64,000 nucleotides of DNA from an uncultured Spirochaetota bacterium. Lineage in GTDB: Bacteria; Spirochaetota; Spirochaetia; SZUA-6; DRHE01. Location: assembly GCA_963745745.1 (NCBI GenBank), contig CAVUYS010000072.1, positions 5,167-69,166 on the forward strand. Direction: 5' to 3'. The position numbers and the translations under genes are program-made. The notes under the pieces are model-generated. The model saw nothing but the letters and a program-made list of their open reading frames with translations, did no database searches and had not been told where the DNA came from. Positions 6,415 through 60,741 of this stretch are shown here, one piece after another (positions within the stretch are counted from its first letter, which is position 1; each line of letters opens with the position of its first letter).

Positions 6415-6765
6415 ATGATCCCGGGACTGGCGATTCTGTTCTGCTTCCTGGCCGTGGGAGAGGCGGCCGCCGGGCTGTCCCGCCTTCCTGTGCCGGGCAG
6501 CGTGCTGGGCATGCTGCTGCTGGCCGCCTCCCTGCGCCTGGGCCTGCTGCACCCGGAAAGCGTGCAGGCGGCCGCCGACGCGCTGCTGGACAACCTGTCG
6601 CTGCTGTTCGTGCCGGCGGGCGTGGGGCTGATGCTGTACTTCGGCCTGCCCGCGCGGGACTGGTGGGCCCTGCTGGCGGCCCTGGTGCCGGGTACCTTCC
6701 TGGTGCTGGCCGCGGTGGGCTGGCTGGAGCAGCTTCTGGAGCGCCCGGCCGCCAGGAAGGAATAG
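6415..6765 (+). CDS. lrgA: CidA/LrgA family holin-like membrane protein
   Basis: MIPGLAILFCFLAVGEAAAGLSRLPVPGSVLGMLLL...LLFVPAGVG. About 116 aa with four hydrophobic segments. It sits immediately upstream of lrgB. Confidence 0.8.
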   Translation: MIPGLAILFCFLAVGEAAAGLSRLPVPGSVLGMLLLAASLRLGLLHPESVQAAADALLDNLSLLFVPAGVGLMLYFGLPARDWWALLAALVPGTFLVLAAVGWLEQLLERPAARKE

Positions 6766-6769
6766 CGCG

Positions 6770-7474: not shown

Positions 7475-8829
7475 AGATCATCGTCGGCCACAGCAACATG
7501 GACCTGGACAGCATCGGCTCCATGGTGCTGGCCCGCTGCCTGTTCCCCGATCATCAGCTGGTGGCCAGCCGGCAGATCCATCCCGTGGCCCGCCACCTCT
7601 ACAACCTGTACCAGGAGCGGCTGGGCTTCCTGCCCGCCGCCGGGTTGAGCGGGCAGCGGGTGGAGCGGATCGTGGTGGTGGACACCCGCGTGCGAAAGCG
7701 CGTGGAGGAGTACCTGCAGCACCTGCGGGAGCCGCCCGCCGACATCCTGGTCTTCGACCACCACGCCGGCGACACCTCCGACATCCCGGGCGCCGTGGTG
7801 CGGGAGAAGGCCGTGGGGGCCAACACCACCCTGCTGGGGCTGGAGCTGCTGCGGCGCAGCGCGACCCTGCACCCGGACGACGCCACGGTGGCCCTCACCG
7901 GCATCTATGCCGACACGGGCAACTTCACCCACGAAAACGTGGAGTACGCCGACTTCCAGGTGGCCTCCCTGTGCCTGCAGCACGGCGCCTCCCTGCCCCT
8001 GGTGCGGCAATTCCTGCGCCCCCTGGCCGAGGGACGCCAGCTGGCCCTGTTCCACGAGTCCCTGAACCACCTGTCCGCGCGCAGCTACGGCGGGCACCTG
8101 CTGCAATTCTGCTACCTGGAGCTGGAGCACCAGAGCGCGGGGCTGGCCGCCGTGGTGGAGCAGGTGTTCGAGGTGGAAGGTCCGGACGCCCTGTTCGCCG
8201 TCTTCTCGATCCCTTCGGAAAGCCAGAGCCTCCTGATCGCCCGCAGCCGCGGCCTGGACATCGACCTGCTGCAGGCCCTGGCCGCCTTTGGGGCCGCGGG
8301 CCACGCCCTGGCCGCCTCCGCCCAGCTCAAGGGCCGCTGGGGTCCGGCCGTGCTGGAGGAGCTGGATCGCCACCTTGCCGCGGTGCTTCAGCCGGCCCCG
8401 ACCGCCAGCAGGATCATGCGCCACGATTTCCCCGCCCTGCGCGAGGACATGAGCCTGCTGGCGGCGGCCGAAGAGCTGGAGAAAGCGGGCCGCACCGGGG
8501 CGCCGGTGGCCGGCCCGGGCGGCGAGCTGCTGGGATTCCTCAGCCTGAGGGACATCATGAAGGGCCGCCAGGCCGGGCAGATGAAAGCGCCGGTGCGGGC
8601 CTATATGACCCGCAACCTGATCAGCGCCTCACCGCTTACCCCGCTGCGCGAGATCGGCGAGCTTTTCCTGAGCCGCCCCATGGGGCAGGTGCCGCTGGTG
8701 GAGGCGGGGCGCCTGGTGGGCCTGGCCAGCCGCGCCGACTACCTGGCCTACCTGGAGGAGCGCCGCCGGCAGGACGCCGGGTTCCTGCAGCGCCTCCGCG
8801 AGAAAGCCGCCCCGGCGAGGGACTCTTGA
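7471..8829 (+). CDS. DHH-family phosphoesterase with C-terminal CBS pair
   Basis: Motifs seen: GHSNMDLDSIGS, VVVDTR, LVFDHH and LTGIYADTGNFT (DHH motifs I-IV). The C-terminus carries CBS-like repeats (LLGFLSLRDIMKG, LVGLASRADYL). Confidence 0.8.
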   Translation: MKIIVGHSNMDLDSIGSMVLARCLFPDHQLVASRQIHPVARHLYNLYQERLGFLPAAGLSGQRVERIVVVDTRVRKRVEEYLQHLREPPADILVFDHHAGDTSDIPGAVVREKAVGANTTLLGLELLRRSATLHPDDATVALTGIYADTGNFTHENVEYADFQVASLCLQHGASLPLVRQFLRPLAEGRQLALFHESLNHLSARSYGGHLLQFCYLELEHQSAGLAAVVEQVFEVEGPDALFAVFSIPSESQSLLIARSRGLDIDLLQALAAFGAAGHALAASAQLKGRWGPAVLEELDRHLAAVLQPAPTASRIMRHDFPALREDMSLLAAAEELEKAGRTGAPVAGPGGELLGFLSLRDIMKGRQAGQMKAPVRAYMTRNLISASPLTPLREIGELFLSRPMGQVPLVEAGRLVGLASRADYLAYLEERRRQDAGFLQRLREKAAPARDS

Positions 8830-9554
8830 AGGCCAGCGAGGCCTCCCGCCGGCTCTGCCGCGCGGTGGAAGGACTGTCCTTCGGCCCTCCCGTGGCCCGG
8901 GTGTACAACCCCCTGCGATACGCGAGGAAGGGACACGAAGCCTACCTCGCCCGTTACGGGCAACCTCCCCGCCGGGTGGTCTTCCTGGGCATGAATCCCG
9001 GCCCCTGGGGCATGGCCCAGACCGGCGTGCCCTTCGGCGAGGTGCGGGCCGTGCGCGACTGGCTGGGCATCTGCGTGCCCGTGGACCGGCCGGCGCACGA
9101 GCACCCCCGGCGCCCGGTGCTGGGCTTCGCCTGCCCCCGCAGCGAGGTGAGCGGGCGCCGGTTGTGGGGCCTGATGCGGGAAGTCTTCGGAACGCCCGAG
9201 GCCTTCTTCACCGACCATTTCGTGGCCAACTACTGCCCCCTGCTCTTCCTGGGCGCCGGCGGGGCCAACCTCACCCCGGACCGCCTGCGCGCGGCCGAGC
9301 GGGACCGCCTGTTCGAGCTCTGCGATGTCCACCTGGCCGGCCTCCTGGAGCTGTTCGAGGCGGAGTGGGGCATCGGGGTGGGGCGCTTCGCCGAAGGTTG
9401 CCTGCGGCGGGCCCGGGAGAGGCTCCCCGCCAGGATTTCGGCCCGCCTGCGCCTGGGCGCCATCCCCCACCCCAGTCCCGCCAGCCCCGCGGCCAACCGG
9501 GACTGGGCGGGGAGCGCCCGGCGGGCCCTGGTCGAGCTGGGAGTATGGGCCTGA
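8826..9554 (+). CDS. SMUG1-type (family 3) uracil-DNA glycosylase
   Basis: Motifs seen: FLGMNPGPWGMAQTGVPFG and HPSPASPAANR. The proposed TTG start at 8826 overlaps the upstream stop. The ORF track shows this gene only as the tail of 7971-9554. Confidence 0.8.
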   Translation: MKASEASRRLCRAVEGLSFGPPVARVYNPLRYARKGHEAYLARYGQPPRRVVFLGMNPGPWGMAQTGVPFGEVRAVRDWLGICVPVDRPAHEHPRRPVLGFACPRSEVSGRRLWGLMREVFGTPEAFFTDHFVANYCPLLFLGAGGANLTPDRLRAAERDRLFELCDVHLAGLLELFEAEWGIGVGRFAEGCLRRARERLPARISARLRLGAIPHPSPASPAANRDWAGSARRALVELGVWA

Positions 9555-10387
9555 AAGCGGCGACCCGCGCCCGCACCCCCCGGCTGCGTTCACGCCCGCA
9601 GCCCCCCGCGCCCTTCGCGTTGATCACGGGGGCCAGCCAGGGATTGGGCCGGGCCCTGGCCGAGGCCTGCGCCCGGCGAGGCCGGAACCTGGCGCTGGTC
9701 GCCCTTCCCGGCTCGGGGCTGCCCGGGGCGGCCGCCGCGCTGGCGGCGAGCTACCCGATCCGCGTGGAGCTGCTGGAGACGGATCTGGCCGAAGGCGGCG
9801 GCAGCCAGCGCGTTATGAACTGGCTGGCCCGCCGCCGCGTCCCGGTGGACACCCTGATCAACAACGCGGGCATCAGCCACCACGGACCCTTCCGCCAGGC
9901 TCCGCCCGAACGCCTCAAGGACCTGGTGGACCTGAACATCAGGGCCCTGGTCCTGCTGACCCGCCGGCTGCTGCCCGAGCTGGAGCGCCACCCGCGGGCG
10001 CGCATCCTGAACGTGGCCAGCCTGGCCGCCTTCCACGCCATGCCCCACAAGGCGGTCTACGCGCCCTCCAAGACCTTCGTGCTGAACTTCACCCTGGCGC
10101 TGCGCGAGGAGCTGCGCGGCACCGGCGTGCGGGCCAGCGCCCTGTGTCCGGGAGGCATCCGCACCAACCCCGAGGTGCGCGCGCTCATCGTGGGCCTCGG
10201 GCGCCTGGCCCGCCTGAGCAGCCAGGAGCCCGCGGAGGTGGCCGAGTACGCGCTTCACCAACTGGAACGCGGTCGGGCGGTGATCGTGCCCGGCGCCTTC
10301 AACCGGCTCACGCGCCTGGCCGGCAGCCTGGTGCCCAGGCCGCTGGCGCTGGCCTTCATCCGCCGCCGCCTGCGAGGCCCCGGCTGA
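9545..10387 (+). CDS. SDR-family oxidoreductase
   Basis: Motifs seen: ALITGASQGLGRALA, NNAGI and LNVASLAA...YAPSKTFVLNFT. The ATG at 9545 lies in the frame of ORF 9164-10387. Confidence 0.85.
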   Translation: MGLKAATRARTPRLRSRPQPPAPFALITGASQGLGRALAEACARRGRNLALVALPGSGLPGAAAALAASYPIRVELLETDLAEGGGSQRVMNWLARRRVPVDTLINNAGISHHGPFRQAPPERLKDLVDLNIRALVLLTRRLLPELERHPRARILNVASLAAFHAMPHKAVYAPSKTFVLNFTLALREELRGTGVRASALCPGGIRTNPEVRALIVGLGRLARLSSQEPAEVAEYALHQLERGRAVIVPGAFNRLTRLAGSLVPRPLALAFIRRRLRGPG

Positions 10388-46320: not shown

Positions 46321-47673
46321 CTACCCCGGCAGCAGCCAGCGCAAGGCGAACTGCCAGAGGGTCACCCCGGCCAGCACCAGCAGGGCGGGGGCGATCAGGC
46401 TGGACAGGCTGCGCAGCAGCCGGATCTTGAAGTACTCCGCGGTGACCACCAGGCAGATGTGCACGGGGGACAGCAGCTCCCCCATGAAGCCGAAGCCGTA
46501 GGCCAGCACCGTGGTGGCGGCCAGCCTGCCGAAGGACGGGGAAGGACCCAGCAGGCTCAGGGCCAGGGGGAAGGTGGCCCCGACGTAGCCCACCGTGCTG
46601 CCCATGGTGAACCCGGCGATGAAGGGCAGGAAGGCGATCAGCAGCGCATCCGGGATGCCGAACAGGGCCAGCTCGCTGCGCAGCAGGGCCACGGGGAACA
46701 CTCCGTCGGGAAGAGGCGCCTCGATCACCGCGCCGTAGACGCGCACGACCACCACCAGCAGGGTGATCTGCAGCGCGCGCCAGGAGAAAACGGCCTGCAC
46801 CCAGGCGCTGAGCGGCAGGCGCCGCTGCCACTGCAGCACCGCCAGCGCCAGGACCAGCCCCGCGGCCATGGGCACGTAGCGGCTCAGCCTCCGCAGGCCC
46901 GGGGAGAGCAGCTGCAGCAGGGCGAAGACCACCACCACGACCAGGATCGGAGCCACCAGGCTCAGGAAGGAGCGGCGGGGACCGGGCGCCGGCGCGAGCG
47001 GCCCGCGTGCGGCCGTGCCTTCGGCCCCGCGCTCCCTGCCCTGCCCGCCCCGCCCTGGGATGCGGCGCAGCAGGAGCAGCGCCCCGCTGCCGGCGGCGAT
47101 CAGGGTCACCGGCAGCTGGACCAGGATGAACTGCCAGATCTCCAGGCGGGTCAGCTCCAGGGCCAGGATCACGCCGGGGTACAGCGGCCACCAGTACTCC
47201 CAGATGTGCCGGAACCAGTGGTTGGTCTGCGTTTTCAGCAGGCCGCTCAGGGAGCGCTGCGGGTCGGCGCTGTCCACCATCGGGGCGGAAAACAGCGCCC
47301 CGCCGGGCATGGGCAGGAAGCCGATCACCGCGGGCAGCGCGGCGAAGGCCAGGCGCCGGGGCACGCGCGAGCGCACCGCCTCCACCAGGTCGCGCATCAC
47401 CCCGCCTTCGGCCATCAGGCTGCTCAGCCAGATCACCAGCAGGAGCACCGCGATCAGCAGCAGGTTGTCCGGCGAGCGGAAGCGCTCCCAGGCGATCGCC
47501 CCCACGTCGGGCAGGCGGTGCCCGAACCAGAGTCCCAGCAGGAGCGTGCCGGCCAGCACCGAGACCAGCAGCTCCTTGACCAGGCGGTTGACCAGCAGGA
47601 TCAGGGCCAGGGTGACCAGCACCTTGACCAGCACGGGCACGGCCGACAGGGAGGTCCAGAGCGTCCAGGGCAT
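46321..47673 (-). CDS. DUF401 family membrane protein
   Basis: 450-aa polytopic ORF containing GFLPMPGGALFSAPMV and TQTNHWFRHIWEYWWP, typical of DUF401. Confidence 0.75.
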   Translation of the reverse strand: MPWTLWTSLSAVPVLVKVLVTLALILLVNRLVKELLVSVLAGTLLLGLWFGHRLPDVGAIAWERFRSPDNLLLIAVLLLVIWLSSLMAEGGVMRDLVEAVRSRVPRRLAFAALPAVIGFLPMPGGALFSAPMVDSADPQRSLSGLLKTQTNHWFRHIWEYWWPLYPGVILALELTRLEIWQFILVQLPVTLIAAGSGALLLLRRIPGRGGQGRERGAEGTAARGPLAPAPGPRRSFLSLVAPILVVVVVFALLQLLSPGLRRLSRYVPMAAGLVLALAVLQWQRRLPLSAWVQAVFSWRALQITLLVVVVRVYGAVIEAPLPDGVFPVALLRSELALFGIPDALLIAFLPFIAGFTMGSTVGYVGATFPLALSLLGPSPSFGRLAATTVLAYGFGFMGELLSPVHICLVVTAEYFKIRLLRSLSSLIAPALLVLAGVTLWQFALRWLLPG

Positions 47674-47736
47674 AGATAGCGTCCAGTTATAGCAGAACCG
47701 GGACGAAAGGTCAGCGGTCCGCCTGGAACGGTCCGC

Positions 47737-50700
47737 CTAAAACTGCAGCCGCGCGCTCAGGCGCAGCTCCAGGCCCAGCGCCGGCTGGCGGGTGCTCCTG
47801 CCGCCTTCGATGCGCTCCTCCACCCCGCCCATGGCCTTGAACGAGAAGCCCAGCTCCACGCCCCGGTCCACGGTGAGACGGCTCTGGTGGGTCACCGCCA
47901 CGCGCAGCGGCACGACGCGGGTGAGAGCGGTGGCCGCGCGGTCGGTGGCCAGCAGCTGGTTTTCCACCTCCAGCCACTCCTCGTGCACGATGCGCTCCTG
48001 CGCGCCCGGCCCCCGCAGCAGGGAACGCAGGCGGGAGGCCCGGGAGGCCACCGGCTGCTCCCAGAGGTAGCGCAGGTCCAGCACGCTGCGCAAGCTGTCG
48101 CTGTCCGGTCGCGACGCGACGGGCAGCTCGCCGGCCGGCTGGCCCGGGAACAGGTACAGCCGCTCGTCCCCCACCCGCTGACGCTCCTGCGAGTAGCGCA
48201 AGCTGTGCTCCGCCCGCAGCCTGCCCCGCAGCCGCCCTCCCGGTCCGGGGGCCAGCTCCAACCGGGTGATCGTGTCCAGGCTGCGGGAGCGCACCTTGCT
48301 CGAATAGTCCCAGGACTCCTCCCAGGCGGCGTCGAGGGCCAGCCGGTTGCCCTCGGCCTTCGGCTGGACCAGGTCCTTGCCCAGGCTGAAGCGCAGCCGG
48401 CGCTTCTGGGCGTGGGCGGCGCCGTCGCGGGAGGTGTCCCCGATGGCCAGGGCCCCGGCGCGCGAAGGCAGGAACCAGGGCTCCGAGCGCAGCCGGACTT
48501 CCAGCCCGAGGGTTTCCTGGAACCCCGCCGACGAGCCGCCCGCCACTCGGGCGCTGCCGGTCAGGGCCTCGACGGCCTGGTGCTCGTGCAGGCGCCCCAG
48601 GTCCAGCCGGGGGCTCAGGTAGTACAGGGGCAGGCGGAAGAGAGGCAGGAGGCCCTCCGCCAGCAGCGGCGCCTCGCCCAGCCCCTGGTCCACGCGACGG
48701 TAGCTGCCGCTGAGATTCCGCGAAGCCTTGGGCGTGAGCTCCAGCAGCCCCTGTCCGCCGGGGCTGAACGGCAAGGCCAGGCCGAGGGCGCCTTGAACGC
48801 TCGCATCCCGCGCGCCCGCCGCCCGGTCCGCGTTCCACTCCGCGTAGCCGCCCTCCAGGTCCAGGTTCGCCCCCAGGTACCGCTGCCGCGGCAGCTCCAG
48901 CCGGAGGCTGGCCTTGTCCGAGCGGCCGCTGCGCCAGGCGCCCGGGAGGGCCTCTGCCGCCGGGAGGAACAGCGAGGCCAGCTTGTCTGCGTAGGACTTC
49001 CCCAACCCCGGAGGCGGCGCGGGGCTGTCCGTGACCAGCAGGTCCTCTCGCAGCGCCTCCACCGCCAGCGCCCCCGCCGCCAGGGCCAGGGTGGCGCTGC
49101 CCTGCAGGCGCTGGGTGAGGCTCTGGGATTGGCCGGTCGAAACCACGGGCCCCCCCTCGGCCTGCTCGCTTTGGCCCTCGTAGCGCCAGGTGCGGGAATA
49201 GGAGTAGGACTGCACCAGGGACTCGGGAAAGCGGTAGTCGGCGGAGAAGGCCAGGGACTCGCTCACCGTCCGGGCCTGCCGGTACACGTACTCCGTCTGG
49301 GTCAAGGCCAGGCGGTCGTCGGTGCCCTGCGTGCGCTGGTAGGAGTGCTCCAGCGCGGGCAGCCAGGCGATGCCCGTGTCCAGCCCCAGTCGCTGGGAAA
49401 AGGTGCCGGTCTGCGTCCCGCTTTGCGCGGAGCGGGACTCGGCGCCAGAAAGCTGCAGGGATACCGGCATCACCCCCAGGAGCCGGGCTTCCAGGCCGCC
49501 GGAGTACCTCTGCTGGCTCCGGCCGGGCTGGTCGGCCAGGCCGCCCTCCGCCCGCTCGTAGGCGCCGCTGAGGTACGGATCGCTCACCAGCGGCACCTGG
49601 CCCGCCGACAGCAGGTCGCCGCGGAAGCCGATCCGGCCTTGTCCGTAGACGCCCGCCTCCAGGCCCCAGCGGCTCTCCCGCAGGTGCCATTCATCCAGCC
49701 AGAATTCGAAATCCGTGCCGGCGCCCAAGGGGACGCCCGGCGGCGCGGCGATGGTGAAAAGGACTTCCGTGACCGTACGCCAGACTTCCAGGCTGCCGGT
49801 GCGCTGCAAGGTGCCGGTCAGGGTGCCGTCGACGCGCACATTCGTAGGGTTCCTCCAGGCGGACGCTCACCTCGTTCCAGCCCTCGTGGAAATCCGTCGG
49901 GCTGAAGGCCGCCGAAGCCCTTTCCAGCGCGTTGGCCAGGAACTCCAGGCGGAGCTCCGCGGCGGCGGGAAAGCTCTGCCCCGCCGGCAGGTACACGTAC
50001 AGGCGGAACTCGCGGTAGGGGGAGAAGTCGGTCGGCACCGGGAAGCGGCGGCGGACGCTCACCGACTGCCCCGCGGCCAGCGTCGGGGTGAACACCGCCG
50101 CCAGGCTCTTCTCCACGTAACCCTGCTCCTCGCGGTAGGCCGGCCGCCCGTGCAGCTCCGCGTACACCTCGGGGTAAGCTGCCGAGAAGGAGGCGCTGTC
50201 CTTCTCGGTCAGCGCCAGCCGGGCGGTATCGGTGCTTTCCGGGCCGGCCGCGGAAAACCAGATGCCGTTCACCAGCAGCTGGCCCGTCACTTCGGCCGCC
50301 CCCGGAGTGACGGGCTTCACCGTCAGGCGCAGCGCCTTGGCTCGCTGGAAGGCCGCGGCCTTGGCGGGGTCGGCGATCAGCTCGCTCAAGTCCAGGCTGA
50401 CCAGCCTCCAGTCGCTGTCGCCCAGCGCCACCGAGCCCAGCTCCAGGGGCCCCAACGCCGGGGCCAGCACGGCCCCTTTCTCCTGGTCCAGGGCGAACGG
50501 CCCTACCGGGTCCAGGGTCGCGCTGCCGTCCAGGTCCTCGGAGTCCAGGCGCCCGTCAGCCTCCCCGAGACGGTCGCTGCCCAGCATCGTAGCCGACCCG
50601 TCCAGCGGGGTGATCGCGAAGCCCGCCTGGGCGCTGGAGGATTCCCCGTCCAGCGCGTCGTCCCCGTCCAGGTCCTCCTGGTAGGCCTGGAGCAGCTCGG

Positions 50701-52843
50701 CGTACAGCAGCACGGCGTCCCCGCTCAGGCCGCGGCCTCGCAGCAGCACGTTGAGGTGGGTGTAGTCCTGGAGGTTCACCGCGGGCAGCCCGGTGGCGGC
50801 GGTGACGTAGCCCTCGGGAGCGGCTGCCGGGATGCGGAAGTCCAGCACCAGGGAGCGGTCCTCTCCTCCCGTGGTCTGGTCCGCGCTGTTGTACGGTCCC
50901 GCCTTGCGGAAATAGTCCAACTGGGGATTGCCCGAGTTGTCCCAGAATACCTCGTGCAGCAGGTCCCCCCCCAGCAGCCGGCGCTCCCAGAGGTTCTCGT
51001 AGCGCAGCTCCCCCCGGCTTTCCAGCGCAACGGCGGCGGCGGGTAGCAGGCCGGAGCGCGAGCCCAGGGTCCAGCCGCTTTCCCGGATGCTCACCGTGTA
51101 CCGGCGCCCGTCCTCCATGTCGGCCACGACGGCCTCCCCGCGGCTGTTGGTCGTGGCCAGGGAAAGTGCGGCTCCGGCGCGCAGCTCCCCCTCCGGGCCC
51201 CGGCCCTCGCACGGCCCGAAGCGCAGGCTCAAGTCCGTGCTGTTGGACAGGTCGCTGGCCCGTTCCTCGCCCAATTGGGGGGCGACCGGTTCGCGCACCG
51301 GCAACGTGTAGGTCGTCAGGTTGGCCGCCTGCAGCCAGCCCCGGTCGTACCCCACCCGCACGGCGGCGAACAGCTCCCCGTCGCCCTCCCCGGTGGGCGC
51401 GTAGCGATAGCTCACCTCCACCTCGCTGGCCGGCCCGAGCACGCCCGGGTGGAAGGAAAGGATGCCCGCGGCGTAGTCCGCCGTGTAGGCGGAAGCCCCG
51501 GCGGGCACCCCGTCGACGGTCACCTTCAGGCTGCCTTCGACCAGGTCGAACTCCAGGAAAAAGCTGTCCGCGCTCGCCGTGTAGCGCAGGAGCAGGGTGT
51601 TCAGCGAGGCGGACTGCCCCGGGTAGCCCAGGCCTCCGTAGACCGGGTTGTCCTCCGCGAAGGGGTTGTCCGCCGGGAAGGGCTGGTCCCCCGGGAAGGG
51701 ACGCGGATAGAAACCCGCGGCGTCGCGGAAGGCGAACAGCAGCGCCCCGAAGTACGGGTCCACCGTGAAGTCCGCCAGCAGCCCGGCGTAATTCTCATTG
51801 GCCGCGCCGGTTCCGGTGAAGAAGAGGCTCACCGTGAGGTCCGCGGGCGTTCCCCCTCCGGCCAGCTCCCCCAGGAAGTAGGCGTTGCGCATTTCCCAGT
51901 AGCTGTTCAGGTCGTTCTTTTTCAGGTACAGGAACAGGGGCGGGATCCCGGCGTCGAAATACTGCGGGTGGCTGGCGGAGCTGAAATCGGCGCGCGTGCC
52001 GGCGGGATCGATGATCGCCTCCTGTCCCAGCACGGGATCGCCGACTCCGACCCCGGCCTTGGTGTAGGTCACGGCCAGTTCCTCCGTCGCGGCCAGGGAG
52101 CGCTGCAGCGAAAGGCGCGCGGTGGCGTTGTCGAAAAAGTAATCCGTCTGGCGGGCCAGCAGGGCGAAGGGCTTGCCGTCGATCAGCGCATCGGGAATCC
52201 CGGTGGGGCTGCTGCGGTACACCCGCAGGCTGGCCTCCTCCAGCCCCGCATCCGGCAGAAGGAAGAAACGCGCCCGGGCATAGTCCACGTCCAGCAGCCG
52301 GGTTTCCAGCACCCGGCGGCTGCCGCGGAAGCTCTTGCGCCCCTCCTGGGATACCCCGTAGCGCAGCAGCGCGTCCCCGCTGAACCTCCCTTTGGCCAGG
52401 CTGACCCGCAGCGCGAAGGTCTGCGGGTTGCCCGCGTCAATGGGCACGAAGCGGGTGCCCGGTATGGAGAGGTACTTGTTGCCGATGGTTACCTCGCGCA
52501 GCAGCTCCCCTTCCTCGCCACGATAGCGCAGGGAATAGAGATTGCCGCCCAGGAGCGAGAAGTAATCGTTGCGCGTTGCGTCGAAGTCGATCTCGGCTAC
52601 GAGGCGCTCGTGCAGCGCCCTTTGCAGCAGCACGCGCCGGATCAGGTGGTCCAGGTCCAGGCCTTCCAGGATGCCCTCGGCCGCATCGGCGGCCAGGAAG
52701 CCAGAGCCCGCGGGCACGCCGAAACCGTAGCCCAGGTCCAGCTCGATGATCCCCAGAGAGGCCAGCTCCCCGTCCTCGGCCTCTGCGGGGAAGATGGCCG
52801 CGGCGCACAGCGCCGCGGCCGCCAGGAAAGTGCGGGCTTTCAG
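47737..52843 (-). CDS. Giant (~1,700 aa) exported outer-membrane protein. The function call is tentative: a possible distant SprA/Sov-like T9SS translocon relative. One frameshift near 49842.
   Basis: A signal-peptide-like N-terminus LKARTFLAAAALCAAAIFPAEA precedes the first listed start. ORFs 49691-52717 and 47737-49839 join at VRLEEP.. / VRVDGTL. Acidic DxDGDD-type loops are present. The C-terminus ends ...LGLELRLSARLQF, a beta-signal-like ending. Length is 5107 nt, one base more than a multiple of 3. Confidence 0.55.
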
Positions 52844-55203
52844 AAGCTGATCGACACCCCGATGGTGTGCTGCAGGCCGTAGTCCGGCAAGGGCCGGAAG
52901 GAATAGTCGACTGTGTATTCGGTGAATCCCAGAGCAAGGCGGATTCCCGCCCCCGCGGAGAAGCTGCGGTCCACCGCGCCGAAGGTGTATCCCAGGCGCG
53001 CGTAGGCCAGGTCGGCGAACACGTATTCCAGGCCCGCTCCCACCGACAGCGCGTCATGGAACGGCAGGTTGAACTGGCCGGCCAGCTTCAGGTTGTGGTT
53101 CTGCACGTTCACCAGGGCGTAGCCCACCGCGGTGCTGAAGGAGGCCGGCAGCGGGTAGGCCTCGCTCACGAAGGTCATGGGCGAGCCGCCGTTGCGCACC
53201 CCCAGGTTCACCGAGGTGTTCAGGTAGGGCTTGTCGGTCTGCAGGTAGACCAGGCGCATCCTGCGCCGCTCCTCCTTGATGTCCGCCAAGGCCCGCTCCA
53301 GGCCCTTGTCCTGCGTTGCGGAGAACTCCGCGGCCTGCTCGTCCAGGTCCGCCAGGGCCTGCTTGTAGGCCGCCTCCTTCTGCTTCTGCTCCTCCTTGAG
53401 GGAGGGGTCGTCGGGGGATTCCCGCAGCCCTCCGGGCCAGCAGCCGCTGGTCGAAGGCCTGGTCGTCCTCCAGGGTCTCGCGGGTCTTCTGCTGCTCGGC
53501 CTCGAAATCCAGTCAGGCGCAGCTCCGCCTCCTCCCTGGCCGAGGCGATGCGCGCCTGGAAGATCTTCTCCTCGTTGCCGTACATGGCGGCCAGCAGGCG
53601 CAGGTACAGCCGCTTCTCGGCCTGCTTATAATCGGCCTGCGCCTTGTCCAGTCCCTTCTGCTTGCGGGCGCTCAGGAGGTCCAGCTCCCGCCTCAGCTTG
53701 GCCTTCTTCAGCTCGCGGGCCAGCTCCGCGCGCAGCTCCTCGAAGCGCTTGATCTCCTTTTCCACCCTGGCCCCGGCTTCCTGGATTTCCTGCTCGCTGG
53801 CCTGGTCCATGGCGGCCATGTCCGCCTCGCTCTGCTGGATCTCCGCGTTCTTGACGGTCACGCGGTCCCCGAGGCGCTTCAGGTAGGGATCGGTCAGCAG
53901 CCCTTGCAGCTCCTTGTCGCTTGCAGCGATCTGCTTGTCCAGCTCCGTGATCCGCGGCTTGTTGGCCTTGGGATCGGCCCGCTCCAGGGAGGCCTTCTCT
54001 TCCTTCAGGGCCTGGATCTCGCCGGAAAGCTCGGCGCGGCGCGGCCCGACCTCGGCCTGGATCTTCTCCTCGTAGCCGGCGATGGCCTGGCGGGCGCCTT
54101 CGATGCGCTCGCCCCGCCGCTGGTCATAGGCTTCATTGCGCGCCTGCACCGCCGTGGTCTTCTCCTCCAGCAGCTCCCGGGTCCTGGCGATGCTGGAGTC
54201 CACGTTGTCATTCAGCATTTCCTCCGCGAGCTCCTGGGCCGGGTCGTCGATCACCGCGAACAGCCGCTGCCGCTCCTGTTGGATCCAGTCCAGGTTCTGC
54301 ACCTTGGCGTCGAAGCGGGCCTGGGCCGCGGCGACATCCGCCTCGTACCACTGCTGGATTTCCGCCACGGCGGCCTGCTCCTCTTCCTGGGCCGCGGCCA
54401 GCTCCTGCCGTTTCTGCGCGAGGGCTGCCTCGTTTTCATCCTTTTTCGCCTGCAGGGCGGGCAGCTTGGCCTCGTCGGCTTTCTGGAGCTGGGCGCTCAA
54501 GTCCCCGGAGGTCTTTTCCAGCCCCGCGACCTCCTTCTGCACCAGTGCCGACTTCCGGGTGGCCTCGGCGGTCTTCTTGGCCTTCTCCGCTTCAATGCCC
54601 TTCTGGTCCTTCTCCAGCTCGGCCTCCAGCTGCTTGAGCGTCGGCGGCTTGGGACGCTGGCCGATGTGCGGGGTCTCGAACCAGGCGGCCGCCCCGGCGT
54701 CGCCGGCAAAGGCGAAGGCATTGTAGTCGCCCAGGGTGCTGTAGATGCCCTTGGCGCTCAGGCCCACGGAGACGCTCTTCCATATGTAGCGGGAATAGCT
54801 CAGGATCGCGGCCGCGTCGTAGATGCTGACCGTAGCTTCCGCCTGCCCGCTCCCGTTGACGAAAGTAAACCCGCCGGTGTTCAGCAGCTGAACGCCAGCA
54901 GCCGCAGTTCCCCCGAGCAGCGGAAAGCCCAGCGCCAGCGCGCTGTGGGTCACCTCGTTGGGCAGCGGGCTCATGTTGAGGAGCAGTCGGAACTTCGGGC
55001 ACGGCCGCGAGCACCGCCGGATTGTAGTACAGGCCCTCCAGCTGCGTGCCCAGGGCGTCCAGGACCCCGCCCATGGAGTCGGAGCGGGCGGCCGGCGGGG
55101 CGATCAGGAAGTCCGCGGCGGTGGTCCCTTGTGCCATCAGCAAGCCGGGAACCCAGGCCAGGATCAAAGCCAGCCAGTTGGCCTTCAGCAGGTTGCGCTT
55201 CAT
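52840..55203 (-). CDS. PorV/PorQ-family-like outer-membrane barrel interrupted by a ~470-aa coiled-coil insertion (three frameshifts, net in frame)
   Basis: Signal peptide MKRNLLKANWLALILAWVPGLLMAQ. Then TAADFLIAPPAARSDSMGGVLDAL...LYYNPAVLA, the PorV-type N-terminal motif. The C-terminus is TEYTVDYSFRPLPDYGLQHTIGVSISF. The middle region (about 53256-54660) is E/K/Q/A-rich heptad-like sequence. Frame changes occur near 54985, 53513 and 53435. Confidence 0.6.
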
Positions 55204-55219: not shown

Positions 55220-57738
55220 TCAGCGGACGATCAAGACTTTTAGGGTCTGCTTGACCCCGGCCGCAATGATCTGCACGAAGTACAGCCCGGGACCGAGAGC
55301 CTGCCCCTTATCGTTGGTGCCGTCCCAGGGGATCGGCACGGTAACCGAGCTGAAGGCCCTGTTCTTGAAAAAGTGCGCACCAGCCTTCCGGAAGTGGTGA
55401 AGACCTGCACGCTGACCTTGTCCGTGGGGTTCACCTGCGGTACGAAGATCAGGCACTGGCTCGCGCCCCCATCGGCGCCCAGGCGGTTGTTGGTTATGGT
55501 GGCCTGGGTGAAGCCGAAGGTGGTGAAGGTCCAGGTCTTGCTCGCGCTCAGCGCCGTGCCCTCCGTATCGGTGATTCCCGTGCTCACCGTCACCCTATAT
55601 TGCTTGAGGTAATCCAGCGGCTCAGCCGGCGTGAAGGTGGCGGTGTTGCTGGAGCCGGCGCTGGGCGAGAGGGTCCCGGCAACCGGCGACGCCGTGGCCT
55701 CCTCCACGATTGTGATGTTGCCTGTCAGGCTCGAAGCCAGGACCTGCTTGGAGAACACCACCTGGATGGTGCTGGTGATCGGGATGGCGGCGGCGTTTTC
55801 GGCCGGCGTGACGCTCAGCACCTGGGGCGGCGTGGAGGGCATGGTCCAGAAGTCCCAGGTCTTGTTCGTGGGCGTGCCGCCGAGGATCTGGTCGGCGAGA
55901 TTCAGGCCATCACCGTCCGTGACCTGAGCGGATAGGATCCTGCAAAAGTAGTGAGTGTTGAAGAGCAGCTTGGTGCCAGGAGGATTCAGGCTCAGGGTGG
56001 CGACATAGCTCAGGTTGTCGTAGGCCGCGCTCACCGTGGCCACCTCGGTCCCGCCGGTATCCGGGTTGCCGTTGTAGAGCTTGAAGGCATTCCCCCAGTT
56101 GGCGGCGGACACATTCTCGGAGAAGGTGGCGGTGATCGTGGGTTCCAGCACGATATTGGTGTCCCCCTGGGCCGGCGAGGTGCTCAGCACGACCGGGTAC
56201 TGGGCCGGCTCCACCGTGAAGGTCCAAGTGTAGTCGGTACCCATGGCGTTGCCGTAGAAGTCCTGGACCGTGCCCTCGATCGTGGCTGTGTAGGTGATGC
56301 CCCAGTCCAGGGTCGGCAGGGTGATGACCAGGGTTTGCGTCGCTGCCGTATAGGTGAAGCTGCTCGGGGTGATCCCCCCGCTGATCGTGAAGTTAGCCGG
56401 ATTCTCCACCGAGGATTCCGTCATGTATTCGTTGAACAGCACCGTGATGTCCGCGCCCCGCAGTACTCCGGTGGCCAGGTTATCGGGCACCGTAGCGGCC
56501 ACCGATGGGGGGTTCCCGTCGTCCGCCGGGTTGATCAGGAAGGTGTTGCCCGCGATCGCCTCCGGGTCGGCGGTGGGGGAAACCACGTAGCCCTTCTGCA
56601 CATACTCCCAGGTGCCGGCAGCGGTGTAGACCAGGTAGGCGTACTCCGGGTCCGCGGCGTTGCCGATGGCATCATCGTCGATCTCATCAGCGAAGACGAT
56701 GTCCACGGACGGATCGTTGATGTTCAGGCCGAAGCTCTGCCCCACCTGGGCAGCGGCGCCGTTCATGTTGACCGCCACGAAGTAGGTCTTGCCCGCGGAG
56801 GTGATGGGGATATTGGCCGGATCCAGCAGGGCGTAGCCCCCGCTCAGGGTGGCCGACGCCACGTAGGCGCCATCACCCAGGCCGTCCGGCTCGAAAAGGC
56901 CATCTCCGTCATCAGCGTACAGGAGCACCCCCGCGGTTCCCACCCAGTTGTCCTGGCCGAAAGTCAGATGCACCCGGACCGTGTCCAGCTGCACGGGCGC
57001 GGTGGTGGCATTGACCGTGGAATCCAGGGCGTCGAAGTCCAGCCGGAGCAGCCCGACCTTGGAGGCGTTGGCAGCGGCCGTGGCCGGGCCGATCCAGGAG
57101 GCGTCCATGGTGGCCTCCAGGGTATCCGCGTTCCTCCTCTGGTTGTGAAGGATGAATTGCAGATCCGCACCTCCGACGGCCAGGGTGGTCCCCGTGCCAA
57201 CCCCGGCTGCGCCATAGGTGACGCTGGTCACCTCGCAGCCCACGGTCGTCGTGGTGTCAGCGGCATTCGTGAAGTCGAACACCACGTACAGGTACTTGTC
57301 GCCGCCGGCGAAGGGAAAGGTAACGCCGCCCGGGTTGGCAGGATTCAGCGGAATGGTGGCCGTGGTGCCGGTGAAGGTGTGCACCCCCCCGGTGTCCACT
57401 ACCACGTCGTCGATGCCCGCCCCATTGTCGTACTCGGCGTTGCCGCCGTTCTCGAAGTACACCCGGATGTCGCTGATGGCGGTGGAAGCGAAGGCGCCGT
57501 CGCTGGTCATGCTCACGGTGATCTGCGAAATGCTGGTGGTCTCCCCGGAGTTCTGCGGTTTCACCCCGAGGCGGACCATCCCGATGCCAGTGGCCCCCGC
57601 CGTAGGGTGGATGGGGATCGACAGAGGAGCGATCGAGATGTGGCTGCGCACGTCCAGGGTCTGGGCGGCGACCCAGCCGGCGGCGCACGACATGAGCAGC
57701 ACGACAAGCACGGCCCGTTTTCTTGACATACCTTGCAC
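55220..57738 (-). CDS. Surface protein with three SbsA/Big_5-like Ig domains and a T9SS/FlgD-Ig-type C-terminal sorting domain (one frameshift at a T-run near 55375)
   Basis: Signal peptide SRKRAVLVVLLMSCAAGWVAAQ. There are three ~95-aa modules, each ending WTFTV, WDFWT or WTFTT. The C-terminus VSVQVFTTSGRLV + RTFFKNRAFSSVTVPIPWDGTNDKGQALGPGLYFVQIIAAGVKQTLKVLIVR is recovered by adding one T to a T5 run. Confidence 0.75.
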
Positions 57739-57846: not shown

Positions 57847-59881
57847 TTAGCGGGCGGTGCGGATGTTGACCACCGACGGCACGGTGCGCAGGCTCTTCAT
57901 CACCTTGCCGAAGTCCCCGGCGTTGTCCAGCTCCACGGTGAAGAAGCCCTCCAGGACGTCCAGCCCGCCGTCCTCGAGCTTTCCCTCGATGAGGTGGCCC
58001 TTGAACTTCCGCAGCGCGCCCTCGATCTCGGAGAACAGGTTGCGCGCTCGCGCGGGCGGTGACCTGGAAGCGCCGGGTGGCTTTCGGGGACACGGTCTCC
58101 CACTCCACCTCGACGTGCCGCTCCTGCGAAGTCCTGGATGAGGCGCATGCTCGGGCAGTCGGCCCGGTGCACGATGATCCCCCGCCCGCGCGACACGTAG
58201 CCGACGATCGCGTCGCCGGGGCCGGCGGGCAGCAGCCGGCGATGCGGATCATGAGGTTGCGCTCCTCGCCGATGCGCACGCCGACCTTGCTCTGGTCGCA
58301 GGATGCGGGTTTCCGGCTCGGCGGGCTTCTCCGCGGCCGCTTGGGCGGGGCGGGCGCGGGCGGCGTCGGCGCTTCTTCGGGCCACGATGTTGCGGTCGAA
58401 GATCAGGTCCGGCTCGTTCAGGGCCAGCCAGTGCCGGATCTTCGAGCGGGCCCGGTGCGTCTTGGCCGAAGCGCAGCCAGTTCAGGTGCGGGCGCGCGTT
58501 GCTGGGCGGTCACGATCTCGATGACCTGGGTGTTCGCCAGCTGCTCCTTCAGCGGGATGATGCGCCCCGTCGGCCTTGGCCGCCAGCGCAGTGGTTGCCC
58601 GATCTCGGTGTGGATGTGGTAGGCGAAGTCCAGGGCGGTGGACCCCTAGGGCAGCTCGATCACGTCCCCCTTGGGGGTGAACACGTAGATCGAGTCCTTC
58701 GAGCAGCTCGCGCTTGATCTCGTCGAGGAACTCGCGGCGAGGCCGACGCCGCTGGGTCCCAGCTCCTTCAGCTTGTTGATGAGGGTGAGCTCGCTCGGCC
58801 TTGACGGCCCGCCCGGCGGCAGTCCGGCTCTTGTACAGCCAGTGGGCGGCGATGCCGTTCTCGGCGGTGCGGTGCATCGCCTGGGTGCGGATCTGGATCT
58901 CGATGCATCTTGCCGCTCGTAGCCCATGACCGTGGTGTGCAGGCTCTGGTAGCGGTTGGACTTCGGCATGGCGATGTAGTCCTTGAACCGGCCCTCGATG
59001 GGCATCCAGAGCTTGTGCACCAGTGCCCGAGCAGCTCGTAGCACTGGCCCGTGGTGTCGCACAGCAGGCGCATGCCCAGCAGGTCGTAGATCTCCTCCAG
59101 CGGCTTGCCCCGTCTGCCTCATCTTCTGGTAGATCGAGTAGAAGTGCTTGGCGCGGCGTCTCGACCTGCGATCGGGATGCCCGCCGCCGCGGCCTCCCGG
59201 TGATCGCCTCGCTCACCCGGCCTGCAGGTAGCCGCTCCCGGTCGCTCTTGCGCTCGGCCACGCAGCTGCCGGATCTGCTCGTAGACCCGGGGGTTGAGGT
59301 GCTTCAGCGACAGGTCCTCCAGCTCGTCCTTGATGCGCGAGATGCCCAGGCGCCCGGCCAGCGGCGCGTAGATGTCGAGGCATCTCGGTGGCGATGCGCT
59401 TGCGGCTGGTCCTCCTCGCAGGTACTCCGAGGGTGCGCATGTTGTGCAGCTTGTCGGCCAGCTTGATCAGGATCACCCGGATGTCCTTGACCATGGCGAA
59501 GAGCATCTTGCGGATGGTCTCGGCCTGCTGGGCGGTCTTGCTCATGCCCGCGGATCGGGAGATCTTGGTCACCCCCTGCACCAGGGCCTCCACCTCCTTG
59601 CCGAACTCCTTGCGCAGCTCGCGGCGGGTCAGGCTCGGTGTCCTCCAGCACGTCGTGCAGGAGCGCGGCGATCACCGTCTGGGCGTCCATGTGGGCGTCC
59701 ACCAGGATCGCGGCCACGGACAGCGGGTGCATGAAGAAGGGCTCGCCGGAGGCCCGCTTCTGCTCGTGGTGCAGGCCATCGGCCCAGCGCAGCGGCGGAA
59801 AGGATGCGCGCCCGGTCCTCCTCGGAGTAGCGCTCCGAGCTTCCCGGTGAAGCCCTGTTTCAGGGGGCCCAGATCGCTCAT
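57847..59881 (-). CDS. rel: Bifunctional (p)ppGpp synthetase/hydrolase RelA/SpoT homolog (at least six frameshifts as assembled)
   Basis: HD domain: [44 protein letters not shown]. Synthetase pieces: [17 protein letters not shown]. The TGS domain ([14 protein letters not shown]) and a C-terminal ACT-like end are scattered over ORFs 59304-59939, 59213-59593, 58482-59261, 58646-59122, 57900-58385 and 57800-58279. Confidence 0.85.
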
Positions 59882-60741
59882 CGGGAGCCTCCCGCGGATC
59901 ACCCGCGGCCTGTCCGCCCAGGTCCGGCACCACCTCCACCTCCTGGAAGCCCCAGGCGAGCAGGCGCTGGCGGACGAAGGCCGCCTGGGCGGGGTCGGCC
60001 TCCAGCAGCAGGAAACCGCGCGGGGCTCAGCCGGGCGGGGGCCTGGCGGATGAGCGGCGGCCAGCAGGGCCGTGCCGTCCCGGCCGCCGGCCAGGGCCTC
60101 CCGGGGCTCGGGCCAGCCGACCTTCCGCATGTCCTCCACCTCCCCGTCCCGCAGGTAGGGCGGATTGGCCGTGATCAGGTCATAGGGACCGGGCACCTGC
60201 TTCAAGCAGGTCGGAGCGGTAAGAAGGGCAGCTCGCGGCCCAGGAGGCGCCGGCAGTTGAGGCGGAACACCTCCTCGGCGCCGGGGGAGAGGTCGGAGGC
60301 GGAGACCTCCAGGCCGGCGCGGGAGTGCTGCAGGGCGATGGCCACGCAGCCGCTGCCCGTGCAGGCGTCGTGCACCCGCAGGGCCTGGCCCGCCGCCGCG
60401 CGAGCGTCCAGCAGGCGCAGGGCCTCCTCGACCAGCGCCTCGGTGTCCGGGCGGGGCACCAGCACCCGCTCGTCCACGTAGAACTCCAGGCCGAAGAACT
60501 CCTTTCGCCGCCGGATGTAGGAGACGGGGATGCCCCGGCAGCGCCGGTCCAGGAACTCCTGGAAGCGCTGCCAGCCCTCCTCCTGGACCGGGGCTCGTCG
60601 GGCAGCGGGCGAGCAGCTGCTCCTTGCGCAGGCCCAGCGCCTCGCGCCAGCAGCACCGTGGCGTCCAGCAGGGGCGTGTCGACCTCGGCGTAGAACAGGG
60701 TGGACTGGCCGCGCTGCGAGGGCGGCTTGCACGGTGATCAT
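59882..60741 (-). CDS. prmC: Release-factor glutamine N5-methyltransferase PrmC/HemK (frameshifted; 3' end unresolved)
   Basis: The ATG at 60741 overlaps the prfA stop. Motifs seen: GIPVSYIRRRKEFFGLEFYVDERVLVPRPDTE, DACTGSGCVAIAL and ITANPPYL. As assembled there is no in-frame stop before the rel start. Confidence 0.8.

What the first reader, a model, noticed from the sequence alone, without database searches (positions are those of the whole stretch)
52840..55203. PorV-like beta-barrel split by a ~470-residue coiled-coil insertion
- The N-terminal ~165 aa carry the FL..aR..MGG...YYNPA..A motif. The C-terminal ~140 aa end YSFRPLPDYGLQHTIGVSISF. Together these look like the two halves of a PorV/FadL-type barrel.
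- Between them (about 53256-54660) lies uninterrupted E/K/Q/A-rich heptad-like sequence, for example LKQLEAELEKDQKGIEAEKAKKTAEATRKSALVQKEVAGLEKT.
- A barrel loop carrying a ~70-nm-scale coiled coil is architecturally unusual for this family. It could act as a tether, ruler or periplasm-spanning strut.
- The reconstruction requires three frame corrections (near 54985, 53513 and 53435). Total length is a multiple of three.
Basis: partly seen in the sequence, partly recalled or inferred. Interest (0 to 1): 0.7.

Follow-up and report, generated by a model that had tools for sequence, protein, structure and literature searches.

The report
PorV-type barrel with periplasmic coiled-coil arm
This is one real outer-membrane gene of an uncultured spirochaete: a PorV-like barrel (the carrier protein of type IX secretion) with a ~470-residue helical arm inserted into a periplasm-facing loop, encoded between a surface protein carrying a secretion tag and a SprA-like secretion pore. 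Together they suggest a compact type IX-like export and anchoring module outside the Bacteroidota.

Summary
Three overlapping minus-strand ORFs (52840-55203) are one gene, broken by three single-base insertions. These are most likely assembly errors, because RelA, PrmC and both neighbouring genes are broken in the same way. About 45 intact homologues of 758-870 aa exist (84% to 33% identity). Every one that carries an organism name comes from a Spirochaetota MAG.

The rebuilt protein passes the NCBIfam PorV/PorQ family cutoff. An AlphaFold model of an 84%-identical homologue (pLDDT 86) is a single 14-strand barrel, and its best PDB matches are PorV in the solved T9SS translocon.

The insertion lies between strands 6 and 7. 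That position aligns with the periplasmic loop of Flavobacterium PorV (residues 193-199) that contacts SkpA. So the insertion faces the periplasm, not the outside.

It is not one 70-nm coil. It is six long helices whose lengths pair up as an antiparallel hairpin, with its tip at residues ~409-413. Length changes occur only at helix junctions. A sister clade carries LysM peptidoglycan-binding domains exactly at that tip.

Upstream lies a Big_5 protein with a T9SS type-A-like C-terminal domain. Downstream lies a ~1700-aa protein whose model matches SprA (Foldseek E 3e-27).

Best reading: a PorV-type carrier with a periplasmic tether arm. This is a new variant of a known kind.

The parts
52840..55203 (-). 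Whole PorV-like gene with helical insert. It is 785 aa after removing three +1 insertions. The stop codon is at 52840-52842.
   Evidence: About 45 intact homologues of 758-870 aa exist.
55129..55203 (-). Signal peptide (MKRNLLKANWLALILAWVPGLLMAQ|G). The cleavage site is read by eye.
   Evidence: Sequence. The N-terminus is hydrophobic in all homologues. No signal-peptide predictor was run.
54663..55128 (-). N-terminal plug region (GTTAADFL...MGG...YYNPA) plus barrel strands 1-6. The long strand 3-4 hairpin is included.
   Evidence: NF033709 profile positions 1-157. AF2 strands 74-177 of P0001. Alignment to F. johnsoniae PorV residues 1-192.
53242..54662 (-). ~472-aa helical insert (GQRPKPPT...ERRRMR). 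It consists of six long helices, H1-H6, that pair as an antiparallel hairpin. Conserved motifs are ERxRLFxVIDDP, DPWLKRL and ELKKAKLKRELD.
   Evidence: AF2 helices 191-655 of P0001, pLDDT ~85-95. Conservation and composition. No Pfam or PDB sequence homologue.
53964..53978 (-). Predicted distal tip of the hairpin (ADPKA, the loop between H3 and H4).
   Evidence: Indels cluster here. P0047 and P0049 are extended at this point. P0038, P0040 and P0041 lack residues 392-439 as one block. The sister-clade LysM domains are inserted here.
52843..53241 (-). Barrel strands 7-14, ending in the C-terminal Phe (...HTIGVSISF).
   Evidence: NF033709 profile positions 170-324. AF2 strands 664-787.
54994..54995 (-). 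Frame break 1: one extra base (GAAG in the window, G-AG in relatives).
53515..53515 (-). Frame break 2: one extra base.
53433..53436 (-). Frame break 3: one extra base.
55220..57738 (-). Upstream partner gene: a Big_5 (bacterial Ig-like) surface protein with a T9SS type-A / FlgD-Ig-like C-terminal domain (...WDGTNDKGQALGPGLYFVQIIAAGVKQTLKVLIVR). It is broken by a 1-base deletion near 55373.
   Evidence: A gene of this kind lies immediately upstream in every locus that has upstream flank.
47711..52835 (-). Downstream partner gene: a SprA/Sov-like giant outer-membrane protein (~1700 aa in relatives). It is broken by a +1 insertion near 49840. Its exact start was not resolved.
   Evidence: TIGR04189 hit, E 1.8e-17, on the L003 orthologue. 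The AF2 model of window ORF 49691-52717 matches SprA chains at Foldseek E 2.8e-27 to 1.6e-16, and the next best fold scores 4.6e-6. Homologues P0217-P0237.

Best explanation
SHOWN OR PREDICTED WITH GOOD SUPPORT
- This is one intact-in-nature gene for a 14-strand outer-membrane barrel of the PorV/PorQ family.
- Its periplasmic turn between strands 6 and 7 has been expanded into a ~470-residue all-helical arm. The equivalent loop of Flavobacterium PorV (residues 193-199) touches SkpA under the T9SS translocon.
- The arm is an antiparallel hairpin of three helix pairs (H1/H6, H2/H5, H3/H4). It has two elbows and a distal tip at ~409-413.
- The gene sits in a conserved cluster: a cargo gene (Big_5 surface protein with a type-A-like CTD), then the PorV-arm gene, then a SprA-like translocon gene.

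INFERRED
- The barrel works like PorV. It docks on the SprA-like pore and captures the cargo's CTD through its extracellular strand 3-4 hairpin and loops.
- The barrel keeps the cargo on the cell surface.
- The periplasmic arm, whose length is conserved, reaches down to the cell wall or a periplasmic partner. It acts as a tether and spacer that mechanically couples the surface protein and translocon to the sacculus.
- In the sister clade this contact is made by LysM domains at the tip. In this clade the binding partner of the tip is unknown.
- The three frameshifts are assembly errors.
For: One gene, not three.
- About 45 full-length homologues exist, at 84% to 33% identity.
- The window differs from intact L005 and L006 by three +1 bases only.
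- RelA, PrmC, the Big_5 gene and the SprA-like gene in the same window are also frame-broken.

PorV family.
- NF033709 scores 102.7 bits against a cutoff of 90.
- The profile of insertion-less relatives (A2) hits F. johnsoniae PorV 6h3i_F at E 2.5e-39.
- The AF2 model (pLDDT 86.4) has 6 + 8 strands.
- The Foldseek top hits are PorV 8gl6_F and 6h3i_F, TMt 0.64-0.65.

True insertion.
- About 300-aa relatives match profile positions 1-175 and ~670-797 contiguously.
- The nearest insert-less relatives are only 23-28% identical.

Periplasmic side.
- Eight strands follow the insert, and the chain ends in a C-terminal Phe.
- The junction aligns to F. johnsoniae PorV 'IAYSDFN' 193-199.
- PMC10994853 calls that stretch the PorV periplasmic loop contacting the SkpA C-terminal helix.
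- The sister clade (P0094, P0111, P0149, P0151, P0210) has Pfam LysM inside the insert.

Hairpin geometry.
- Helix lengths pair up as 53/55, 71/80 and 83/97.
- Indels in 46 sequences occur only after residues 241, 414-419 and 597.
- Three members lack residues 392-439 as a single block. This removes 20 aa of H3, the loop and 23 aa of H4.
- Tip extensions and the LysM domains sit at positions 408-421.

Genomic context.
- The Big_5/CTD gene is upstream in all loci with flank, and the SprA-like gene is downstream in most.
- The CTD is conserved and is also found in the sister-clade upstream genes.
- The SprA-like fold matches SprA at E 2.8e-27.
Against: - No experiment supports any of this. Topology rests on a predicted model and on alignment to a solved homologue.
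- This clade has no recognisable peptidoglycan-binding domain, so the tether target is unknown.
- The scores for the PorV and PorQ equivalog models are far below cutoff (22-26 of 250 and 62-66 of 220). It is therefore not an orthologue of canonical PorV.
- The cargo CTD scores just under the TIGR04183 cutoff (19-20 of 23).
- The SprA-like model is of moderate quality (pLDDT 68.7, TM 0.2-0.37), and sequence-level similarity to SprA is weak for most members.
- In L001, L002 and L008 no SprA-like gene lies next door.
- Whether the genomes have motor or attachment components (GldKLMN, PorU, PorZ) was not tested.
- A PorV tied to the wall could not shuttle freely as canonical PorV does.
Extended versus folded geometry of the arm is therefore unresolved.
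Confidence: 0.55

Rival explanations
1. Same architecture, different job for the arm. It replaces the SkpA/SprE periplasmic 'dish' of the Bacteroidota Extended Translocon. It would be a built-in chaperone or funnel that holds the unfolded or folding cargo under the SprA-like pore, rather than a wall tether.
For: - The insertion point is exactly the PorV loop that contacts SkpA in F. johnsoniae.
- Skp-type chaperones also work through long helical hairpin arms (established knowledge).
- No SkpA or SprE gene is seen in the cluster.
Against: - No sequence or fold similarity of the insert to Skp or to TPR proteins was found.
- LysM at the tip in the sister clade points to the wall, not to a substrate.
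- The Big_5-PorV pair persists where no SprA-like gene is adjacent.
Confidence: 0.2
2. Same architecture, but the arm is a force-transmitting handle. A periplasmic or inner-membrane motor pulls on it to eject the PorV-cargo complex from the SprA-like pore. This would be analogous to SprF and PorG being hooked to the moving GldK/PorK track in Bacteroidota.
For: - The energy-requiring step of T9SS is ejection of the carrier-substrate complex.
- Bacteroidota outer-membrane carriers are coupled to a moving periplasmic track through periplasmic tails (PMC12635249; PMC10994853).
- The arm has conserved length and conserved motifs.
Against: - No motor genes lie in the cluster or in the part of the window that was scanned.
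- The protein has no cysteine, so disulfide coupling is impossible.
- LysM binding to peptidoglycan suggests a static anchor.
Confidence: 0.12
3. The helical insert is extracellular: a surface-exposed stalk or fibril displayed from a barrel loop.
For: - Coiled-coil stalks are common on bacterial surfaces.
- All inter-strand connections in the model are short, so loop length alone does not identify the side.
Against: - Strand parity places the insert on the same side as the C-terminus: 8 strands follow it, and the C-terminal Phe is periplasmic.
- The site aligns with a loop that is periplasmic in the solved T9SS translocon.
- The strand 3-4 hairpin that enters SprA from outside has the opposite parity.
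- LysM in the sister clade fits the periplasm.
Confidence: 0.06
4. The gene is a genuine pseudogene in this organism, or is really three separate genes: an N-terminal fragment, a coiled-coil protein and a C-terminal fragment.
For: - The deposited sequence has three frame breaks.
- A public annotation calls the 584-aa middle ORF as a protein (P0011).
Against: - Each break is a single extra base relative to two intact relatives, and no in-frame stop remains after correction.
- Third-codon-position G+C (GC3) is 0.84-0.85 in the two long ORF pieces covering the gene.
- RelA and PrmC in the same window are broken even more densely.
- About 45 homologues are single ORFs.
Confidence: 0.05

Closest known systems
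PorV (F. johnsoniae Fjoh_1555, PDB 6H3I/8GL6 chain F; P. gingivalis PorV/LptO), the T9SS type-A substrate carrier
   Same: - It is a 14-strand FadL-type barrel with an N-terminal plug and an NPA-type motif.
- It has a long strand 3-4 hairpin.
- PorV is the best structural match (TMt 0.64-0.65) and the best PDB sequence-profile match.
- The gene is adjacent to a SprA-like gene and to a CTD-bearing cargo gene.
   Different: - The T3 periplasmic turn is 7 residues in F. johnsoniae PorV and ~470 residues of helical hairpin here.
- Identity is only ~25%.
- It fails the PorV and PorQ equivalog cutoffs.
- Its extracellular loops are much shorter.
- The host phylum is Spirochaetota, not Bacteroidota.
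Treponema pallidum FadL-like OMPs TP0548/TP0859/TP0865 (UPF0164 relatives)
   Same: They are spirochaetal 14-strand FadL/PorV-like barrels carrying an alpha-helical domain that is presumed periplasmic (PMC8407342).
   Different: - There, the helical/TPR bundle is a short C-terminal appendage.
- Here, it is a ~470-aa hairpin inserted inside the barrel between strands 6 and 7.
- Those proteins have no SprA-like or CTD-cargo gene context.
SprF/PorP-family carriers and PorG of Bacteroidota
   Same: They are outer-membrane barrels that hold a T9SS-exported surface protein. They connect it, through a periplasmic extension, to an internal structure (PMC12635249).
   Different: - They belong to a different barrel family.
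- Coupling is by a short C-tail and a disulfide to GldK/PorK.
- Here there is no cysteine, and the extension is a long helical arm.
Outer membrane-peptidoglycan tethers and spacers (Braun's lipoprotein Lpp, OmpA, Pal; LysM-bearing intimin/invasin)
   Same: - The idea is shared: an OM-anchored protein reaches the sacculus through a helical spacer of defined length (Lpp) or a PG-binding module in the periplasm (LysM of intimin). This comparison rests on established knowledge.
- The sister clade has LysM at the arm tip.
   Different: - There is no homology.
- This clade has no recognisable PG-binding domain.
- The spacer is an intramolecular antiparallel hairpin inserted in a barrel turn.

Membership tests
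PorV/PorQ family (NCBIfam NF033709) | Whole-protein HMM score at or above the curated cutoff (90 bits) | tested here: met
   The reconstruction scores 102.7 bits and the barrel-only version 108.7 bits. The uncorrected fragments score 19, 42 and 42 bits.
PorV/PorQ family (NCBIfam NF033709) | 14-strand FadL-type barrel with the N-terminal segment plugging the lumen | tested here: met
   The AF2 model has 6 + 8 strands. Foldseek top hits are PorV 8gl6_F and 6h3i_F, followed by TbuX, FadL and TodX. This is a prediction, not a solved structure.
T9SS PorV proper (NF033710 equivalog) / PorQ (NF033711 equivalog) | Equivalog-level HMM score (250 / 220 bits) | tested here: not met
   PorV scores 22-26 bits and PorQ scores 62-66 bits.
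T9SS PorV proper | Works with a SprA/Sov translocon | tested here: inconclusive
   A SprA-like gene is adjacent in the window and in most loci. The fold match to SprA is E 2.8e-27. Physical interaction is not testable here, and three loci lack the neighbour.
T9SS PorV proper | Binds type-A CTD cargo | not testable with these tools
   The upstream gene always ends in a conserved FlgD-Ig / type-A-like CTD. It scores 19-20 bits on TIGR04183 against a cutoff of 23.
Complete type IX secretion system | Presence of the motor and ring (GldL/M/K/N = PorL/M/K/N) and of the attachment components (PorU, PorZ, PorQ) | not tested
   Ten other ORFs of the window are housekeeping genes.
FadL/TodX transporters (Pfam PF03349) | Pfam match; lateral opening and hatch for hydrophobic substrates | tested here: not met
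   There is no Pfam hit at E<=1. The structural match is weaker than to PorV (TMt 0.38-0.51).
Canonical heptad coiled coil | 3.5-residue hydrophobic periodicity along the helices | tested here: inconclusive
   A Fourier analysis of alignment-averaged hydropathy shows peaks near 3.6 only for H1 and H3. No dedicated coiled-coil predictor was available.
Peptidoglycan-binding OM tethers (LysM, OmpA_C, etc.) | A recognisable PG-binding domain | tested here: not met
   There is none in this clade. LysM is present in the sister clade at the equivalent tip position.

The most novel reading that the evidence does not exclude
A clade of Spirochaetota carries a self-contained three-gene type IX-like module: a CTD-tagged surface protein, a PorV carrier and a shortened SprA translocon. 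In it, the carrier's own ~470-residue periplasmic hairpin takes over the role of the Bacteroidota accessory machinery (the SkpA/SprE dish and/or the link to a track) by anchoring to the cell wall. This would mean the SprA-PorV translocon core is older or more mobile than the Bacteroidota/FCB lineage, and can work without the GldKLMN motor.
Probability: 0.3. Interest if true: 0.85.

Novelty: new variant of a known kind. Interest (0 to 1): 0.68.

Why it matters
T9SS is treated in the literature as specific to the Bacteroidota or FCB group (PMC4793230; reviews found). Searches of the held library found no report of a SprA-PorV-cargo cluster in Spirochaetota.

If the module is functional, three things follow.
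- It offers a minimal, three-gene version of the translocon-carrier-cargo core for mechanistic work.
- It shows that the PorV periplasmic loop that contacts SkpA is an evolutionary hot spot for coupling the carrier to periplasmic structures.
- It suggests how spirochaetes, whose outer membrane is poorly tied to the wall, could mechanically anchor a surface protein across a periplasm that also houses the flagella.

The strictly conserved helix lengths make a periplasmic 'ruler' hypothesis directly testable.

Tried and rejected
- Pfam on the fragments and on four intact homologues gave no domain for the insert, only noise hits.
- The PDB sequence search with the family profile returned only PorV (weak) and generic coiled-coil noise such as ApoA-I and XaxA.
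- The PDB sequence search with a single SprA-like protein found nothing. With an 8-sequence profile, SprA was the best hit but only at E 0.15. The structure route was needed.
- The exact-match lookup of the window's 584-aa ORF found no contig.
- The hydropathy Fourier test for heptads was inconclusive.
- The apparent ~4-kb interruption of the gene in L009 (CP070696.1) is a scaffolding artefact with 100-N runs, not a mobile element.
- The pseudogene and three-gene readings were considered and rejected.
- The extracellular placement of the insert was considered and rejected.
- I could not obtain model coordinates or PAE. Whether the arm is extended or folded is therefore inferred only from helix lengths and indel patterns.


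Full report
**What is in the sequence**

On the minus strand, three ORFs overlap in three frames: 54592-55203 (203 aa), 53220-54974 (584 aa) and 52840-53289 (149 aa). A three-frame read-through shows a signal peptide and the motif GTTAADFLIAPPAARSDSMGG...LYYNPAVLAA. About 100 residues of beta-rich sequence follow, then ~470 residues rich in A/E/L/Q/K/R. The last ~135 residues are beta-rich and end ...YSFRPLPDYGLQHTIGVSISF*.

**The frame breaks are assembly noise**

The window region was aligned to two intact relatives: L006 (Spirochaetes bacterium RBG_16_67_19) and L005 (a JGI metagenome contig). The window differs by exactly three single extra bases, at ~54994, ~53515 and ~53434. Removing them gives a 785-aa ORF with no internal stop.

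The same window has frame-breaking indels in other genes:
- RelA, with at least 7 in 650 bp;
- PrmC;
- the upstream gene, with a 1-base deletion at ~55373;
- the downstream gene, with a 1-base insertion at ~49840.

GC3 is 0.84-0.85 in the two long ORF pieces that cover the gene. A database search with the reconstruction returned 49 proteins. About 45 are single full-length ORFs of 758-870 aa, at 84% down to 33% identity. The gene is therefore one gene, and the breaks are almost certainly consensus errors.

**It is a PorV-family barrel**

- The reconstruction scores 102.7 bits on NCBIfam NF033709 'PorV/PorQ family' (cutoff 90). The match is to profile positions 1-157 before the insert and 170-324 after it.
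- It is far below the equivalog cutoffs for PorV and PorQ proper. It is a family member, not an orthologue.
- AlphaFold2 was run on a 46-sequence alignment headed by P0001, which is 84% identical to the window protein. It gave pLDDT 86.4 and pTM 0.66. The model has six strands (74-177), helices 191-655, then eight strands (664-787).
- Foldseek against the PDB put PorV from the solved T9SS translocon first: 8gl6_F at E 1.5e-6 and 6h3i_F, with TMt 0.64-0.65. The alignments span both halves. TbuX, FadL and TodX come next.

**It is a true insertion**

An exhaustive profile search of 1.84 billion representatives found about nine full-length representatives of this family. It also found thousands of ~300-aa PorV/PorQ-like barrels. 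In those, profile positions ~1-175 and ~670-797 match as two stretches that are contiguous in the protein. The closest insert-less relatives are only 23-28% identical. The insert-bearing proteins are therefore a discrete clade.

**Which side of the membrane**

Three lines of evidence agree on the periplasm.
1. Eight strands follow the insert and the chain ends in the usual C-terminal Phe. The insert is therefore on the same side as the C-terminus. The even-to-odd strand connections after the insert are 2-3 residues long, as periplasmic turns are.
2. A profile of insert-less relatives aligns F. johnsoniae PorV at E 2.5e-39. The junction GQRPK|EERHK falls on PorV 'YQSEE-IAYSDFN-GRW'. IAYSDFN is residues 193-199. 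Lauber et al. [quoted passage not shown]
3. A sister clade of 820-923-aa Spirochaetota proteins has the same barrel-plus-insert architecture with one or two Pfam LysM domains inside the insert (E down to 1.7e-8).

**Shape of the insert**

It is not one 70-nm helix. The model has six long helices of 53, 71, 83, 97 (kinked at 440), 80 and 55 residues. These lengths pair as H1/H6, H2/H5 and H3/H4.

- Across 46 sequences, some only ~32% identical to P0001, indels of 3 or more residues occur only after residues 241 (H1/H2 junction), 414-419 (H3/H4 loop) and 597 (H5/H6 junction).
- Three members lack residues 392-439 as one block. This removes 20 residues of H3, the loop and 23 residues of H4.
- Two members have a helix-loop-helix extension at position 414.
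- The sister-clade LysM domains sit at positions 408-421.

This is the signature of an antiparallel hairpin whose distal tip is at ~412-416 of P0001, which is window aa 409-413 (nt 53964-53978). Its reach is ~30 nm if the two elbows are straight and ~12 nm if they fold back. I could not decide between these without coordinates. Insert length is 475-490 residues in 40 of 46 members. The best-conserved motif is ELKKAKLKRELD. The insert has no Pfam or PDB sequence homologue. A simple heptad test was inconclusive.

**Genomic context**

In every locus with upstream flank, the preceding gene encodes a 700-1150-aa Big_5 (Ig-like) protein. That protein ends in a conserved ~80-aa FlgD-Ig / T9SS type-A-like CTD...VQVFTxTGxxVATL...WDGTNxxGxxLGPGLYFVQIRATNYKRVLKVMIVR. 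The CTD scores 19-20 bits on TIGR04183, just under the cutoff of 23. The sister-clade upstream genes, which are translationally coupled, end in the same kind of CTD.

Downstream in the window and in most loci lies a ~1700-aa protein.
- One orthologue hits TIGR04189 SprA/Sov at E 1.8e-17. Other orthologues hit only weakly.
- An AF2 model of the window's 1008-aa ORF, built with 21 homologues (pLDDT 68.7), matches SprA chains 8gl6_A, 8gl8_A, 6h3i_A and 6h3j_A at Foldseek E 2.8e-27 to 1.6e-16.
- The next best fold scores 4.6e-6.

The rest of the window that I scanned is housekeeping. All named members come from Spirochaetota MAGs.

**Mechanism**

Shown or predicted: a PorV-type barrel, a periplasmic hairpin arm, and a conserved cargo-carrier-translocon gene cluster.

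Inferred: the barrel docks on the SprA-like pore and binds the cargo CTD as PorV does. The arm ties the carrier, and through it the surface protein, to the wall or to a periplasmic partner, and acts as a spacer of fixed length. I prefer the tether reading for three reasons:
- LysM sits at the tip in the sister clade;
- the cargo-carrier pair persists even where no SprA-like gene is adjacent;
- the helix lengths are indel-free.

Two rival jobs for the arm remain open. One is a built-in substitute for the SkpA/SprE dish, suggested by the exact insertion site. The other is a force handle, analogous to the SprF/PorG coupling to the GldK track (PMC12635249).

**Comparison and novelty**

The closest known protein is PorV, but with a 7-residue turn replaced by ~470 residues. 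T. pallidum FadL-like proteins carry a C-terminal periplasmic helical/TPR appendage (PMC8407342). That is a different solution to the same design.

Literature searches found no description of a PorV with such an insert, nor of a SprA-PorV-cargo cluster in Spirochaetota. TXSScan reported T9SS only in Bacteroidetes. I rate it a new variant of a known kind, with moderately high interest.

Noticed in passing
window 57850-60740 (RelA, PrmC), ~55373 and ~49840: Frame-breaking single-base indels are frequent across this part of the window. There are at least 7 within 650 bp of RelA. The window sequence is a noisy consensus, and any ORF-based annotation of it will be fragmented.
   Followed up: partly
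window 47711-52835 (-): A ~1700-aa SprA/Sov-like outer-membrane protein in a spirochaete. It is about 700 residues shorter than Bacteroidota SprA. Its fold matches SprA at Foldseek E 2.8e-27, although sequence-profile similarity is weak. Only the N-terminal 1008 aa were modelled.
   Followed up: partly
window 55220-57738 (-): The Big_5 surface protein has a C-terminal ~80 aa (type-A-like CTD) that is far better conserved among orthologues than the rest of the protein (LGPGLYFVQI...LKVxIVR).
   Followed up: partly
P0094, P0111, P0149, P0151, P0210; loci L017-L019: A sister clade of Spirochaetota PorV-arm proteins (820-923 aa) carries one or two LysM domains at the hairpin tip. Each is translationally coupled to an upstream giant CTD protein (1118 aa, and more than 3300 aa). 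No SprA-like gene was seen next to them.
   Followed up: partly
L009 (CP070696.1, Spirochaetaceae bin59) 5959-9998: This 'complete chromosome' is scaffolded with 100-N runs every 2-3 kb. The PorV-arm gene appears split by ~4 kb of unrelated sequence, which is a scaffolding artefact.
   Followed up: yes
P0043, after P0001 residue 241: One family member has a 64-residue low-complexity insertion rich in P, A, T and E, exactly at the H1/H2 elbow of the arm.
   Followed up: no
P0133 (784 aa): This is another PorV/UPF0164-like barrel with a different appended module: a transglutaminase-core hit plus C-terminal TPR repeats. PorV-like barrels with periplasmic add-ons may therefore be a wider theme.
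   Followed up: no
window 46324-47736 (-): A DUF401 membrane protein gene lies directly downstream of the SprA-like gene on the same strand. Whether it belongs to the cluster was not examined.
   Followed up: no
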